In this document: one piece after another, positions 57,206 to 59,675 of the stretch
Numbering within the stretch: the stretch's first letter is position 1
Layout: each line of letters opens with the position of its first letter
NCBI RefSeq assembly: GCF_004799405.1
Contig: NZ_SSMW01000130.1
Coordinates: forward strand, 29,238 to 93,237
DNA length: 64,000 nucleotides
DNA from: Bradyrhizobium sp.
GTDB lineage: Bacteria > Pseudomonadota > Alphaproteobacteria > Rhizobiales > Xanthobacteraceae
Reading direction: 5' to 3'
Made by a program: the position numbers and the translations under genes
Notes under the pieces: generated by a model
Database searches by the model: none
The model's input: the letters and a program-made list of their open reading frames with translations, nothing else
Told to the model about the DNA's origin: nothing

Positions 57206-57736
57206 ATGGAAGATGCGTTTCGCGGCGTGGCCGATTTTGTCCGCGACCATGAGGTGTGGGCCGCGCCCATCGTTCTGGCGCTGGCGTTCGGGGAGTCGCT
57301 GGCTTTCATCTCGCTGCTGATTCCGGCCTGGGGAGCGCTGGTCGCGATCGGCGCCCTGATCGGCGTCAGCGGCATCAGCTTCTGGCCGGTCTGGATCGCC
57401 GGCGGCATTGGCGCCGCGCTGGGCGACTGGGTCTCCTACTGGTTCGGCTTCAAGTACAAGGAACACGTCGCGCAGATGTGGCCGCTGTCGCGCTACCCCG
57501 CGCTGCTGCCGCGCGGCGAAGCCTTCGTGAAAAGTTGGGGCGTCCCCTCGATTTTCATCGGACGGTTTTTCGGACCCCTGCGCGCCTCGGTGCCGCTGGC
57601 GGCAGGGATTTTCGAAATGCCGTATTGGAGTTTTCAGGCGGCGAATTTCATCTCCGCGCTGGTGTGGTCGGCGGCGCTGCTGCTGTTCGGCGACGTGATT
57701 TCACAAATCCTCGAATGGATCTGGCGCACGGTCTAG
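57206..57736 (+). CDS. DedA-family inner-membrane protein
   Basis: 176 aa; FGESLAFISLLIPAW and GRFFGPLRASVPLAAG are typical DedA/SNARE-associated motifs. Confidence 0.8.
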   Translation: MEDAFRGVADFVRDHEVWAAPIVLALAFGESLAFISLLIPAWGALVAIGALIGVSGISFWPVWIAGGIGAALGDWVSYWFGFKYKEHVAQMWPLSRYPALLPRGEAFVKSWGVPSIFIGRFFGPLRASVPLAAGIFEMPYWSFQAANFISALVWSAALLLFGDVISQILEWIWRTV

Positions 57737-57776
57737 GGTCGCCGTTTTTTGATCCGGGGCGTGACGCTGGTTTGTC

Positions 57777-57805
57777 TTGACGAAAACCGGGCGCGGCCTT
57801 ATAGC
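57777..57805 (+). promoter_or_regulatory. sigma70-type promoter candidate
   Basis: TTGACG (57777-57782), a 17-nt spacer, then TATAGC (57800-57805). The predicted TSS at about 57812-57813 coincides with the uORF ATG. Confidence 0.55.
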
Positions 57806-57812
57806 CCGCTCC

Positions 57813-57890
57813 ATGATCGACGCCGCGACCATTCTCATCGCTCGCCGCCGCCGCAGCATCTCTGCGGTACGGGCGGACATCTGCGTTTAG
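57813..57890 (+). promoter_or_regulatory. candidate leader peptide uORF (25 codons, four consecutive CGC Arg codons)
   Basis: The ORF from ATG 57813 to TAG 57888-57890 encodes MIDAATILIARRRRSISAVRADICV. CGC x4 lies at 57843-57854. There is no SD upstream. It is not in the ORF track (too short). Confidence 0.45.
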
Positions 57891-57987
57891 ATATCAGCCC
57901 CTGCCGCCGGATCCGGTCCGCGGCACTTCATTTCCAAAACAGCGCGATCTGAACCGGCGGCTCCCCTCAACGAAGCAGGAGCAAGCC

Positions 57988-58671
57988 ATGTTTACCCGAC
58001 CTTTTTTCGAGCCCGATCGAGCCGCGAGCCTGGCGTTTGCCGACGCGCGCGGATTCGGCACGGTCTGCGCCTGCGACGGCGGCAAGCCGGTCGCGTCCGC
58101 GCTGCCGTTCTGCCTCGAATATTCAAGCGACGGCACGCCCCGCGTCTCGTTCCACGTCGCTCGCGGCAATACGCTGGCGACGCTCGCCGACGGCCGGTCA
58201 AGCTGGTTGTTTGCGGTGAACGGCGCCGATGCCTATGTCTCGCCGCATTGGTACGCCTCGCCGGACCAAGTGCCGACCTGGCTGTATCAGGCCGTGCATC
58301 TGTCGGGCCCGGTTCGCACCATGACGGCACAGGAATTGGCCGGCCATCTGGATGCGCTCAGCGCCAAATTCGAAAGCTGGCTGGCGCCGAAACCGTCATG
58401 GACGACAGGCGAAATGACGGCGGGGCGGCGTGAAGCGATGATGCAGGCGATCGTGGGTCTTGTCATGACGGTCGAAGGGATCGAGGGCAGCTTCAAGCTC
58501 AACCAGCACAAGTCCGACGTCGATCACGCGGCGATCAGCGATGCACTGGCGCAGCAAGCCGATCCCGCCGCGCAGGCGATCGGCAAACAACTGGTCGCGC
58601 TGCGGCCGCAGTTGGATTACAAACAACCGCTGTCTGTCAGCGGTCTCGCCGATTCAAGGAACGCACCATGA
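57988..58671 (+). CDS. FMN-binding PaiB-family protein (annotated family: negative transcriptional regulator)
   Basis: 227 aa; the C-terminal KLNQHKS motif and overall layout are as in PaiB-like proteins (from memory). AGGAG lies about 6 nt upstream of the ATG. Confidence 0.75.
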
Positions 58672-59675
58672 CCCTCTCCGACACCAAGCAGCCGGGAGTC
58701 CCGGCACCGACCTTGCACACCAAGGCGGCGAAGCCCGCCGTGTTCGTCGATGGCGCCGCCGGAACAACGGGGCTGGGCATCCGTCAGCGTCTTGACGCGC
58801 AGAACGACGTCGCGGTGCGAAGCATCGCTGCGGAAATGCGCAAGGATCCAGGCGCCAAGCGCGCGCTGATGGAGGAAGTCGACCTTGTCATCCTCTGCCT
58901 GCCGGATGATGCCGCAAGGGAGACCGTCGCGCTGATCGACGGCATGGGAGCCGCGGCGCCCAAGGTGCTGGACGCTTCCACGGCCTTTCGAGTCGCGTCC
59001 GACTGGACTTACGGATTTCCGGAGCTTGCGCCGGATCAGGCCGACAAGATCCGCTCGGCGCGAAAAGTCTCGAATCCCGGCTGCTATCCGACCGGCGCGC
59101 TGGCGTTGCTGCGGCCGCTGGTCGATGCCGGCCTGGTGCCGGTTGACTACCCCGTGACGATCAACGCGGTGAGCGGCTATTCGGGCGGTGGCAAGTCGAT
59201 GATCGAAAATTTCGAATCCGGCACCGCGCCGGCCTTCGAACTCTATGGCCTCGGCTTCGAGCACAAGCATATTCCGGAGACGCAGCGTTACGCCAATCTG
59301 ACGCGGCGGCCGATCTTCGTGCCTTCGGTTGGCAATTTCCGGCAGGGCATGCTGGTGTCGGTGCCGCTGCATCTCGACACCTTGCCGGGAAAGCCCGACG
59401 CCGCCGATCTGCAAGCCGCGCTGGCGAAGCGCTACGCCGGAGCCATCTACGTTTCGGTGATGCCGCCGGGCGATGCCGCAATACAGAGCGGCCGGCTCGA
59501 GCCCGAGGCACTCAACGAAACCAACCGGCTGGAACTCTATGTCTTTGGCAGCGACAAGCACCGCCAGGCGGTGCTGGTCGCGCGACTAGACAATCTGGGC
59601 AAAGGCGCTTCCGGCGCGGCGATCCAGAACATGCGGCTGATGCTCGGATTCCCCGAGCCCACCGGGCTGCGCTAG
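58668..59675 (+). CDS. argC: N-acetyl-gamma-glutamyl-phosphate reductase (short, type 2 ArgC)
   Basis: [18 protein letters not shown]-terminal NAD motif and active-site Cys in [10 protein letters not shown]. Its ATG overlaps the upstream stop (ATGA). The true start may lie a little downstream. Confidence 0.88.

What the first reader, a model, noticed from the sequence alone, without database searches (positions are those of the whole stretch)
57777..57990. Candidate arginine-sensing leader upstream of the coupled paiB-argC pair
Seen in sequence:
- TTGACG-17 nt-TATAGC lies at 57777-57805.
- An ATG at 57813 sits 7-8 nt after the -10 with no SD, so the uORF would be leaderless.
- The uORF encodes MIDAATILIARRRRSISAVRADICV, with CGC CGC CGC CGC at 57843-57854 (6 Arg in 25 codons).
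- Complementary segments follow: CCGCAG 57851-56 with CUGCGG 57862-67, and GCCGCCGG 57903-10 with CCGGCGGC 57954-61.
- GCUCC 57960-64 pairs with GGAGC 57978-82, which is the SD of the PaiB-like ORF (ATG 57988).
- The last two helices share nt 57960-61 and are therefore mutually exclusive.
- The PaiB-like stop overlaps the argC start (ATGA 58668-71), so anything controlling the first ORF also controls an arginine-biosynthesis gene.

Established: runs of cognate codons in leader peptides drive ribosome-mediated attenuation of trp, his, leu, thr, phe and ilv operons.

Inference: this could be an Arg-codon attenuator or an arrest peptide. I am not aware of a described one for argC in alphaproteobacteria.
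Basis: partly seen in the sequence, partly recalled or inferred. Interest (0 to 1): 0.72.

Follow-up and report, generated by a model that had tools for sequence, protein, structure and literature searches.

The report
Arginine-codon leader attenuator before argC
A tiny upstream gene with four arginine codons in a row, followed by three competing RNA hairpins, sits in front of the arginine-synthesis gene argC here and in 28 related soil bacteria, and looks like a trp/his-style attenuator that senses arginine, a specificity I could not find described.

Summary
The one slip is the Arg count: the uORF has 5 Arg, not 6.

Twenty-eight related loci keep the same block: Bradyrhizobium, Afipia, Tardiphaga and other Nitrobacteraceae. 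The block is a TTGAC-N17-TATA promoter, an ATG 6-8 nt after the -10 (so a leaderless mRNA), and a 23-29 codon uORF with an Arg run (RRRR or longer in 27 of 29). All indels are in-frame. At the Arg codons there are 10 synonymous CGC>CGT cells against 1 non-synonymous change.

Three mutually exclusive hairpins are present in all 29:
- 1:2, Arg codons with GCGGUAYGGGCGG.
- 2:3, an antiterminator that holds the uORF stop codon.
- 3:4, UGCCGC..GCGGCA followed by the most U-rich stretch of the leader.

This is the trp/his/leu geometry with the correct sign: an Arg-stalled ribosome favours 2:3, and a ribosome at the stop codon favours 3:4.

The element tracks argC, not paiB. Three relatives have leader-argC with no paiB, and argC can be of either type (TIGR01851 or TIGR01850).

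Rfam, Pfam, NCBIfam and my literature searches found no described arginine attenuator of this kind. I call it a new variant of a known kind. All evidence is computational.

The parts
57777..57782 (+). -35 hexamer TTGACG
   Evidence: TTGAC is invariant in 29/29 leaders, and the conserved block begins exactly here.
57800..57805 (+). -10 element TATAGC (TATATC, TATGAC or TATACG in relatives), 17 nt after the -35
   Evidence: Spacing of 16-18 nt is kept in 29/29. The generic scan did not call it because position 6 is not T.
57813..57890 (+). Leaderless leader ORF (25 codons plus TAG), MIDAATILIARRRRSISAVRADICV
   Evidence: The ATG lies 6-8 nt after the -10 in 29/29. The uORF is 23-29 codons, all indels are multiples of 3, and the stop codon varies among TAA, TAG and TGA.
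57843..57854 (+). Regulatory run of four CGC Arg codons (segment 1)
   Evidence: RRRR or longer in 27/29 (RRGR in L008, RRHRR in L016). Ten CGC>CGT synonymous cells against 1 non-synonymous.
57845..57876 (+). Hairpin 1:2, Arg codons paired with GCGGUACGGGCGG (segment 2, 57864-76)
Evidence: Forms in all 29, -14.3 to -20.9 kcal/mol. The window AG/CU versus L001 UG/CA is a compensatory change.
57864..57907 (+). Hairpin 2:3 (antiterminator): GCGGUA 57864-69 with UGCCGC 57902-07, stacked on GGGC 57871-74 with GCCC 57897-900, with an apical hairpin that holds the uORF stop codon
   Evidence: This is the MFE of the segment in all 29, -21.6 to -33.5 kcal/mol, mean z -3.6. The outer pairs are kept in 25/26. 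The inner helix has a different sequence but is still paired in L142, L145 and L017.
57902..57925 (+). Hairpin 3:4 (terminator-like): UGCCGC.GGAU / GUCC.GCGGCA
   Evidence: RNAalifold consensus. Energy -11.4 to -15.0 kcal/mol in all 29. 95.8% of cells are paired, and GGA:UCC becomes GAA:UUC in L017/L019.
57926..57935 (+). U-rich tail CUUCAUUUCC after hairpin 3:4
   Evidence: It is the most or nearly the most T-rich 8-mer of the leader in 24/29. It is canonical in relatives (AUUUUU in L002-L005, U8 in L009, GCUUUUU in L140) and absent in 5/29.
57903..57961 (+).
   Evidence: MFE of the downstream half in 26/28. 93.3% of cells paired, 5 pairs with changes on both sides, 0/500 shuffles reach this. 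Its role is unresolved.
57960..57982 (+). Anti-SD GCUCC paired with SD GGAGC of the PaiB-like ORF
   Evidence: CUCC/GGAG pairing is kept in the paiB-bearing loci. The SD is mostly paired in every modelled ribosome state.
57988..58671 (+). PaiB-like FMN-binding protein gene (227 aa)
   Evidence: PF04299 FMN_bind_2, E 4.8e-38. Absent between leader and argC in L059, L140 and L143.
58668..59675 (+). argC, N-acetyl-gamma-glutamyl-phosphate reductase (type 2), start overlapping the paiB stop (ATGA)
   Evidence: TIGR01851, 414 bits against a cut-off of 230.

Best explanation
This is a classic ribosome-mediated transcription attenuator whose regulatory codons are arginine codons.

Proposed sequence of events:
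1. Transcription starts at or 1 nt before the A of ATG 57813. The mRNA is therefore leaderless, and a 70S ribosome begins the 25-codon leader ORF directly.
2. With charged tRNA-Arg plentiful, the ribosome runs through CGC x4 (57843-54) to the TAG at 57888-90. There it covers segment 2 and the top of the 2:3 hairpin. Segment 3 (UGCCGC 57902-07) then pairs with segment 4 (GCGGCA 57920-25), and RNA polymerase terminates in the U-rich tract 57926-35. The product would be an RNA of about 115-120 nt, and paiB-argC is not expressed.
3. With tRNA-Arg poorly charged, the ribosome stalls on the first Arg codons. It masks segment 1 but leaves segment 2 (GCGGUAC GGGCGG 57864-76) free. Segment 2 pairs with segment 3 as soon as segment 3 emerges (antiterminator 57864-57907). 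The terminator cannot form, and transcription continues into paiB-argC.
4. The read-through RNA then settles into the long hairpin 57903-61 plus a small anti-SD:SD hairpin. The function of these two is not resolved.

Shown by computation: conservation, frame, codon pattern, the three alternative hairpins, their geometry and energetics, and the linkage to argC.

Inferred: the transcription start site, translation of the uORF, termination at the tail, and the arginine response.
For: 1. 29 leaders from the window and from Bradyrhizobium, Afipia, Tardiphaga and other Nitrobacteraceae keep the promoter, the ATG 6-8 nt after the -10, and the uORF with its Arg run.
2. Coding signature. All indels between the ATG and segment 2 are multiples of 3. 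The run is always read as CGC/CGT = Arg. There are 10 synonymous cells against 1 non-synonymous at the Arg codons, while flanking residues vary freely. This is the pattern expected when the codons matter rather than the peptide.
3. Segment 2 is constrained as RNA. Its Ala codon is GCG in 29/29, whereas another Ala codon in the same uORF is GCT 15 / GCC 9.
4. The 1:2, 2:3 and 3:4 hairpins form in all 29, with means of -17.3, -24.8 (z -3.6) and -13.6 kcal/mol.
5. Geometry. The last Arg codon is 6-9 nt from segment 2 in the 20 first loci, and the stop codon is 9-12 nt from segment 3 in 19 of those 20 (24 nt in L016).
6. Constrained ensembles on the transcript ending at 3:4. With a ribosome on Arg1 or Arg2, the window favours 2:3 by 2.5 or 3.8 kcal/mol. 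With a ribosome at the stop, it favours 3:4 by 4.2 kcal/mol. The shift has this sign in 25/29.
7. The tail after 3:4 is the most or nearly the most T-rich 8-mer of the leader in 24/29, and is canonical in several relatives.
8. G57922-A57925 lie in the loop of the long hairpin H4 yet are conserved like stem bases (G21 and G22 invariant, C23 15/16, A24 13/16) and complementary to UGCC 57902-05.
9. The downstream gene is argC of either type (TIGR01851 or TIGR01850). In L059, L140 and L143 the leader directly precedes argC with no paiB.
10. There is a precedent in the same class: S. meliloti trpL is a leaderless uORF in a transcription attenuator (PMC10117765, PMC6614838).
Against: - There are no experimental data of any kind.
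- The window's U-tract is weak (CUUCAUUU), and 5 of 29 leaders have no U-rich tail.
- The generic terminator scan did not call the hairpin; the stem has a bulge.
- Hairpin 3:4 is supported mostly by invariance, with only one pair changed on both sides.
- Without a ribosome the 2:3 and 3:4 ensembles are nearly isoenergetic (window +1.9 kcal/mol). The ribosome-dependent shift is near zero or reversed in several of the more distant leaders, L140-L146.
- The best covariation belongs to the long hairpin H4, which the transcriptional model does not need.
- In the read-through state the SD is still predicted to be paired.
- CGC is a common codon, so sensitivity to Arg limitation is assumed rather than shown.
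Confidence: 0.65

Rival explanations
1. Translational attenuation. The position of the ribosome on the uORF decides whether CCGGCGGC 57954-61 pairs with GCCGCCGG 57903-10 (SD free) or the adjacent GCUCC pairs with the SD (SD blocked), so that paiB-argC translation rather than transcription responds to arginine.
For: The anti-SD:SD pairing is conserved in the paiB-bearing loci. The long hairpin has real covariation. Some leaders lack a U-rich tail. It could act as a second layer that silences leaky read-through transcripts.
Against: The probability that the SD is unpaired does not change consistently between no ribosome, a ribosome on the Arg codons and a ribosome at the stop, in 20 homologues (window 0.00-0.04 in all states). 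The long hairpin and the SD hairpin coexist in the MFE of 26/28. With 2:3 formed, segment S4 is freed and would strengthen SD sequestration, which gives the wrong sign. The anti-SD hairpin is not kept in the same form where argC follows the leader directly (L059, L140). This model also leaves the 3:4 hairpin and its U-rich tail unexplained.
Confidence: 0.15
2. Nascent-peptide arrest. The leader peptide, inside the ribosome tunnel, senses free arginine or a related metabolite, as TnaC, SpeFL or the fungal arginine attenuator peptide do, and the stalled ribosome remodels the leader RNA.
For: There is a recurring A-V-W-A after the Arg run. Arg-sensing by uORF peptides has precedent in fungi (my own knowledge).
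Against: Residues around the run vary freely, and W is replaced by R or G in 9/29. The conserved A-V-W-A codons are invariant at third positions too, so the constraint is on the RNA (segment 2) rather than on the peptide. Arrest under high arginine would leave segment 2 free, which would induce a biosynthetic gene when arginine is plentiful. That is the wrong sign.
Confidence: 0.05
3. No ribosome sensing. The region is a structured 5' UTR (for stability, processing or protein binding) and/or is controlled by a repressor at the palindrome around the -10. The Arg-coding frame is a by-product of GCC/GGC repeats used for RNA pairing.
For: The GC-rich repeats CGCCGCC and GGCGG are what make the helices. 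C>U changes at Arg third positions also preserve G-U pairing. A palindrome GGGCGCGGC-N6-GCCGCGCCC spans the -10 in 14/29. H4 has the strongest covariation.
Against: This does not explain the fixed ATG 6-8 nt after the -10 in 29/29, the indels that are all multiples of 3, the run always being in the Arg frame rather than the Ala or Pro frame, the stop codon always lying inside the top of 2:3, or the link to argC of two different types. The palindrome is degenerate in the window itself and absent in about half the leaders.
Confidence: 0.08
4. The same Arg-codon sensing but a different output: Rho-dependent termination or RNase-mediated decay of the leader, as in Salmonella speF orf34, rather than intrinsic termination at 3:4.
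For: U-tracts are weak or absent in some leaders. The region after 3:4 is C/U-rich and G-poor. The speF orf34 precedent uses Arg codons with Rho and RNase G (PMC6386406).
Against: The C-rich stretch is only about 20 nt and lies in the loop of a stable hairpin. Most leaders do carry a hairpin plus U-rich tail at the expected place.
Confidence: 0.07

Closest known systems
Sinorhizobium meliloti trpL / rnTrpL attenuator upstream of trpE(G) (PMC6614838, PMC10117765)
   Same: It is alphaproteobacterial. The leader ORF is leaderless, so the mRNA starts with its AUG. It is a ribosome-dependent transcription attenuator in front of a biosynthetic gene for the cognate amino acid, built from alternative hairpins.
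   Different: Its regulatory codons are Trp, not Arg. Its peptide is 14 aa against 23-29 aa here. Its attenuated RNA and peptide have demonstrated trans functions, and nothing of that kind is known here. There is no sequence similarity (Rfam search empty).
Enterobacterial leu, his, thr, phe and ilv leader-peptide attenuators (leuL especially; my own knowledge)
   Same: A short leader ORF with a run of cognate codons in its middle (leuL has four Leu codons in 28). The 1:2 / 2:3 / 3:4 logic is the same. The stop codon lies close to segment 2 or 3, and the terminator is followed by U residues.
   Different: Those leaders have an SD-led uORF and strong U-tracts. Here the uORF is leaderless, the U-tract is weak or variable, and an extra conserved long hairpin and an SD hairpin follow the terminator. 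To my knowledge and in my searches, arginine is not among the amino acids described for this class.
Salmonella speF leader orf34 (PMC6386406)
   Same: A bacterial uORF in which consecutive Arg codons report arginine supply through the speed of the ribosome and alternative mRNA folds.
   Different: It has two Arg codons in a 34-codon ORF. Its target is ornithine decarboxylase, not arginine synthesis. Its outputs are Rho termination, RBS unfolding and RNase G decay rather than an intrinsic terminator. It is a gammaproteobacterial system.
Mycobacterial polycysteine leaderless short ORFs (bioRxiv 10.1101/834739)
   Same: Leaderless uORFs with runs of one codon type act as amino-acid-responsive attenuators of downstream operon genes for that amino acid.
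   Different: The amino acid is cysteine, and the organisms are actinobacteria. A trp-type three-hairpin terminator arrangement is not part of what I read (title and abstract only).
Fungal arginine attenuator peptide (arg-2 / CPA1 uORF; my own knowledge)
   Same: A uORF upstream of an arginine-biosynthesis gene that makes expression respond to arginine.
   Different: It is eukaryotic. It depends on the peptide sequence and stalls ribosomes at high arginine. It involves no Arg-codon run, no RNA switch and no transcription coupling.

Membership tests
Classic ribosome-mediated transcription attenuator (trp/his/leu type) | A short leader ORF immediately upstream of a biosynthetic gene or operon, conserved as an ORF | tested here: met
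   A 23-29 codon ORF in 29/29 leaders. The frame to segment 2 is preserved through indels that are multiples of 3.
Classic ribosome-mediated transcription attenuator (trp/his/leu type) | A run of codons for the amino acid made by the regulated pathway | tested here: met
   Four or five consecutive Arg codons in 27/29, with only synonymous variation apart from L008. The downstream gene is argC (TIGR01851 at 414 bits, or TIGR01850 at 399 bits).
Classic ribosome-mediated transcription attenuator (trp/his/leu type) | Three overlapping, mutually exclusive hairpins 1:2, 2:3 and 3:4 | tested here: met
   All three form in each of the 29 leaders. Segment 2 (GCGGYA) and segment 4 (GCGGCA) compete for segment 3 (UGCCGC).
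Classic ribosome-mediated transcription attenuator (trp/his/leu type) | 3:4 is an intrinsic terminator (GC-rich stem followed by a U run) | tested here: inconclusive
   The stem is 10 bp and GC-rich, at -13.9 kcal/mol. The tail has 5 U in 8 in the window. It is canonical in L002-L005, L009 and L140 but missing in 5/29. The generic scan did not call it.
Classic ribosome-mediated transcription attenuator (trp/his/leu type) | Geometry: a ribosome stalled on the regulatory codons frees segment 2, and a ribosome at the stop codon blocks 2:3 | tested here: met
   The distances are 6-9 nt (20 first loci) and 9-12 nt (19 of those 20). The constrained-ensemble shift has the expected sign in 25/29 (window +2.5 / +3.8 against -4.2 kcal/mol).
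Classic ribosome-mediated transcription attenuator (trp/his/leu type) | Amino-acid-dependent premature termination in vivo or in vitro | not testable with these tools
   This needs Term-seq or Northern blots, reporter fusions, or in vitro transcription.
Translational attenuator (SD sequestration switched by uORF translation) | The SD of the main ORF is paired with an anti-SD | tested here: met
   GCUCC 57960-64 pairs with GGAGC 57978-82, and this is kept in the paiB-bearing loci.
Translational attenuator (SD sequestration switched by uORF translation) | The position of the ribosome on the uORF changes SD accessibility | tested here: not met
   There is no consistent change in the probability that the SD is unpaired across four ribosome states in 20 homologues. 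H4 and the SD hairpin coexist. This is equilibrium modelling only.
Regulatory arrest peptide (TnaC, SpeFL, AAP type) | A conserved peptide sequence, especially near the stall site | tested here: not met
   Outside the Arg run the residues vary. The conservation of A-V-W-A is at nucleotide level and includes third positions.
Any Rfam RNA family, or any Pfam/NCBIfam leader-peptide family | A match to a curated model | tested here: not met
   Rfam 15 at E<=10 returned 0 matches in 57500-58300. Five leader peptides had no NCBIfam or Pfam match at E<=10.

The most novel reading that the evidence does not exclude
The element may be more than an arginine version of trpL. In a lineage whose arg genes are scattered and which, as far as I recall, lacks ArgR, the terminated leaderless RNA of about 120 nt and/or its Arg-rich peptide could act in trans on other arg genes, as rnTrpL and peTrpL do for trp. 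The covarying long hairpin with the SD hairpin would then be a second, separate checkpoint, giving a two-tier riboregulator. A palindromic operator at the -10 would add a third, transcription-factor layer.
Probability: 0.15. Interest if true: 0.8.

Novelty: new variant of a known kind. Interest (0 to 1): 0.68.

Why it matters
Leader-peptide attenuation is textbook for Trp, His, Leu, Thr, Phe and Ile/Val. I found no description of it for arginine biosynthesis.

- If confirmed, this adds arginine to the list and gives a concrete, testable mechanism for controlling an arginine-pathway gene in Bradyrhizobium, Afipia and Tardiphaga, common soil bacteria whose genera include plant symbionts, where regulation of this pathway is, to my knowledge, poorly understood.
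- It is a second case, after S. meliloti trpL, of a leaderless leader ORF in alphaproteobacteria.
- It links a PaiB-like FMN-binding protein of unknown role to arginine metabolism by co-regulation.
- It offers a compact arginine-responsive part for reporters.
- It shows that unannotated 24-codon ORFs can be recognised from sequence alone.

Tried and rejected
- Rfam scan of 57500-58300 at E<=10: no match.
- Generic promoter and terminator scan. It called no promoter, because the -10 lacks T6. The only terminator-like sites are at the dedA stop, 57728-45.
- Whole-leader equilibrium folding with masked ribosomes, to test the SD switch: no consistent effect. I dropped that model as the decision step.
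- RNAalifold on the full MAFFT alignment gave a mixed consensus with little covariation, because several exclusive folds are superposed and the variable parts are misaligned. I moved to per-segment and per-sequence analysis.
- Metagenome scan with GCGGYNYGGGC..TGCCGC..GCGGY was far too unspecific in GC-rich DNA.
- PaiB homologue search: the 120 hits listed were all >=77% identical, so it did not widen the sample.
- The supplements of the Bradyrhizobium TSS map (PMC4842269) contain no argC entry as held. The Turnbough 2019 review is not held.
- The leader peptides have no Pfam or NCBIfam family.
- Other reading frames considered and rejected. The antisense ORF 57701-57880 also reads RRRR, but its ATG is absent in most homologues. 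The TTG-started 37-aa extension from 57777 fails because the gap between -10 and ATG varies from 6 to 8 nt. The +1-frame ORF 57749-57952 is broken by the non-triplet indels downstream of the uORF.
- A riboswitch reading was rejected. Conservation lies in GC stems, the loops are variable, and there is no Rfam hit.
Full report
**1. The observation**

- TTGACG lies at 57777-82, then 17 nt, then TATAGC at 57800-05.
- ATG is at 57813, seven bases later, with no purine-rich Shine-Dalgarno in between.
- The ORF 57813-57890 reads MIDAATILIARRRRSISAVRADICV, with CGC x4 at 57843-54.
- The listed complementary pairs are all present.
- The PaiB-like ORF (57988-58671) ends inside the argC start (ATGA at 58668-71).

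There are two slips. The peptide has five Arg, not six. The two 3' helices share only two bases, so a slightly shortened SD hairpin can sit next to the long helix.

Pfam and NCBIfam confirm the genes. The first ORF is an FMN_bind_2 (PaiB-type) protein, and the second is argC of the 'argC_other' type, TIGR01851.

**2. Comparative test**

A search with the PaiB-like protein in one genome per species returned 19 loci, Bradyrhizobium-like MAGs and isolates with 61-90% PaiB identity. All 19 carry the same block. It consists of TTGAC-N17-TATA, an ATG 7-8 nt after the -10, a 24-29 codon ORF with an Arg run, and 91-101 nt to the main ATG.

I widened the sample in two ways.
- A DNA-pattern scan of metagenomes was mostly noise but gave two true homologues, L059 and L095.
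- Type-1 ArgC homologues led to named genomes: Bradyrhizobium prioriisuperbiae, Afipia massiliensis, Tardiphaga sp. 709, Nitrobacteraceae AZCC 2161, Bradyrhizobium sp. NFR13, and two MAGs. All seven carry the leader.

That makes 29 leaders in total.

Conservation starts exactly at the -35, and upstream sequence is unalignable. Leader identity to the window (0.72-0.87) equals that of paiB codon positions 1+2. It is far above third positions (0.46-0.69) and the upstream spacer (0.55-0.62). So the conservation reflects selection, not recent ancestry.

**3. The uORF behaves as a regulatory leader ORF**

- The run is RRRR or longer in 27 of 29 (RRGR in L008, RRHRR in L016).
- At the four Arg codons there are ten CGC>CGT synonymous cells and one non-synonymous change.
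- Three separate indels between the ATG and segment 2, and the C-terminal extension in L008 and L010, are all multiples of three. Downstream of the stop codon, indels have arbitrary lengths.
- The stop codon varies among TAA, TAG and TGA.
- The residues around the run vary freely. Minority counts per codon position are 113 / 118 / 165.

This is what is expected when the codons matter and the peptide does not. It argues against an arrest peptide or a functional small protein. No curated peptide family matches, and gene callers did not call the ORF in the NCBI and JGI records.

**4.

Downstream of the Arg run lies GCGGUAC-GGGCGG (segment 2, 57864-76). It is nearly invariant, including third codon positions. 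Its Ala codon is GCG in 29/29, while another Ala codon in the same ORF splits GCT 15 / GCC 9.

Segment 2 can pair backwards with the Arg codons to form hairpin 1:2 (57845-76).

Segment 2 can also pair forwards with UGCCGC (segment 3, 57902-07). GGGC:GCCC stacks on top of that, and a variable apical hairpin contains the uORF stop codon. This is hairpin 2:3 (57864-57907).

Segment 3 can in turn pair with GCGGCA (segment 4, 57920-25) plus GGAU:GUCC, forming hairpin 3:4 (57902-25). The tail that follows is CUUCAUUUCC.

All three hairpins form in each of the 29 leaders, with means of -17.3, -24.8 (z -3.6) and -13.6 kcal/mol.
- The outer 2:3 helix is kept in 25/26 distinct sequences, with only pair-preserving one-sided changes.
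- The inner 2:3 helix has a quite different sequence yet is still paired in the Tardiphaga, AZCC 2161 and L017 lineages.
- Hairpin 3:4 is 95.8% paired, with GGA:UCC replaced by GAA:UUC in one lineage.

The tail after 3:4 is the most or nearly the most T-rich 8-mer of the whole leader in 24 of 29. It is canonical in several relatives: AUUUUU in L002-L005, U8 in L009, and GCUUUUU in B. prioriisuperbiae. It is absent in five.

**5. Mechanism**

The geometry is that of the trp, his and leu attenuators.
- The last Arg codon lies 6-9 nt before segment 2. A ribosome stalled on the first Arg codons therefore masks segment 1 and leaves segment 2 free.
- The stop codon lies 9-12 nt before segment 3, inside the top of 2:3. 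A ribosome that reaches it blocks 2:3.

I computed ensemble free energies for the transcript that ends at 3:4, with the ribosome footprint forced single-stranded. In the window:
- A ribosome on Arg1 or Arg2 favours 2:3 by 2.5 or 3.8 kcal/mol.
- A ribosome at the stop favours 3:4 by 4.2 kcal/mol.
- With no ribosome the difference is +1.9 kcal/mol.

The shift has this sign in 25/29. It is small or reversed in some of the more distant leaders.

So low arginine leads to a stall, then the antiterminator, then read-through into (paiB-)argC. High arginine leads to completion of the uORF, then the terminator, then a short RNA. That is the right sign for a biosynthetic gene.

The promoter and the fixed 6-8 nt gap put the TSS at the AUG, which makes the mRNA leaderless. 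S. meliloti trpL, also alphaproteobacterial, is exactly such a leaderless attenuator ORF (PMC10117765, PMC6614838).

**6. The element follows argC, not paiB**

In L059, L140 (B. prioriisuperbiae) and L143 the leader directly precedes argC with no paiB. The surrounding synteny is otherwise the same: parE-dedA-(MBL hydrolase)-leader-argC-MAPEG-phaC.

Where paiB is present, argC may be type 2 (TIGR01851, in the window clade) or type 1 (TIGR01850, in L012-L019, Afipia and Tardiphaga). The constant partner of the leader is therefore an N-acetyl-glutamyl-phosphate reductase gene.

**7. What remains unexplained**

It extends to a hairpin of about 17 pairs, 57903-61, called H4. H4 is the MFE of the downstream half in 26/28. 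It is 93.3% paired, with five pairs changed on both sides, which none of 500 shuffles reach.

Its 3' arm is transcribed after the termination point, so it cannot take part in the termination decision. It excludes 3:4 and coexists with a small anti-SD:SD hairpin.

The SD is predicted to be mostly paired whatever the ribosome does. I therefore do not accept SD sequestration as the arginine switch. It may damp translation of leaky read-through transcripts, or H4 may serve stability or processing.

The bases G57922-A57925 are unpaired in H4 yet conserved like stem bases (G21 and G22 invariant, C23 15/16, A24 13/16), and they complement UGCC 57902-05. That supports 3:4 as a second, selected fold of the same sequence.

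**8. Comparison with what is known, and novelty**

- Rfam 15 has no match, even at E<=10.
- Six full-text literature searches found no leader-peptide attenuator with Arg codons for an arginine-biosynthesis gene.
- A comparative survey of Actinobacteria found no RNA regulation for arginine and mentions T-boxes elsewhere (PMC1262725).
- The nearest relatives in kind are S. meliloti trpL, the enterobacterial leader peptides, Salmonella speF orf34 (two Arg codons, with Rho and RNase G outputs; PMC6386406), and the mycobacterial polycysteine leaderless ORFs (bioRxiv 10.1101/834739).

I therefore class this as a new variant of a known kind. The mechanism is classic. The amino acid is new, the start is leaderless, and there is an extra conserved hairpin layer.

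**9. Verdict**

- Confidence that the uORF senses arginine supply through ribosome speed: about 0.8.
- Confidence that the output is intrinsic termination at 57926-35: about 0.65.

All of this rests on sequence analysis, and the experiments listed above would settle it.

Noticed in passing
window 57789-57812; L001 2802-2825; also L059, L140, L141, L142: An inverted repeat GGGCGCGGC-N6-GCCGCGCCC brackets the -10 element and reaches the uORF ATG. It is perfect over 8-12 bp in 14 of 29 leaders (12 bp in L059), with arm changes that keep the symmetry (C..G becomes A..T in L141 and L059). It is degenerate in the window (right arm GCCCGCTCC). It may be an operator for a repressor, which would add transcription-factor control to the attenuator.
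   Followed up: partly
window 58668-59675 versus L017 3686-4744, L141 3001-4059: The gene after the leader(-paiB) is a type-2 argC (TIGR01851) in the window clade, but a type-1 argC (TIGR01850, only 28-34% identical) in L012-L019, Afipia and Tardiphaga. One argC type has replaced the other in place, under the same leader.
   Followed up: partly
L059 1485-1702 (minus strand), L140 2714-3003, L143 2708-3003: In these three loci paiB is absent and the leader sits directly before argC. paiB is therefore an optional passenger of the attenuated transcript. In L143 the leader is about 80 nt longer.
   Followed up: yes
window 57737-57776; L001 1664-2752: Most relatives have a gene of about 330-360 aa for an MBL-fold hydrolase (a weak AidB-type lactonase match, below cut-off) between dedA and the leader. 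The window has only 40 nt there, as do L014, L018 and L143.
   Followed up: partly
L008 2815-2904, L010 2820-2909: The usual stop codon is changed (TAA>CAA), and a 15-17 nt insertion extends the uORF by five codons (..RVQDLRV). The inserted bases lengthen the 2:3 hairpin to -33 kcal/mol, and the new stop codon keeps its 10-12 nt distance to segment 3.
   Followed up: partly
window 57701-57880 (minus strand): The antisense ORF of 59 aa also reads RRRR, because the repeat is GC-symmetric. Its ATG is missing in most homologues, so it is not a conserved gene.
   Followed up: yes
window 57728-57745: A small hairpin ACGGTCTAGGGTCGCCGT followed by TTTTTT overlaps the dedA stop codon. It is a plausible dedA terminator and would isolate the leader promoter from upstream transcription.
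   Followed up: no
L142 4120-5845, L145 4287-5325, L146 5824-6858, L017 4741-5223: In the Tardiphaga, AZCC 2161 and NFR13 loci, argC is followed by glutamine synthetase-like genes, and by a GNAT acetyltransferase (L142) and glutaminase genes (L142, L145), instead of MAPEG-phaC. L017 has a GNAT gene overlapping the argC stop. These are nitrogen-metabolism neighbours that might share the transcript.
   Followed up: no
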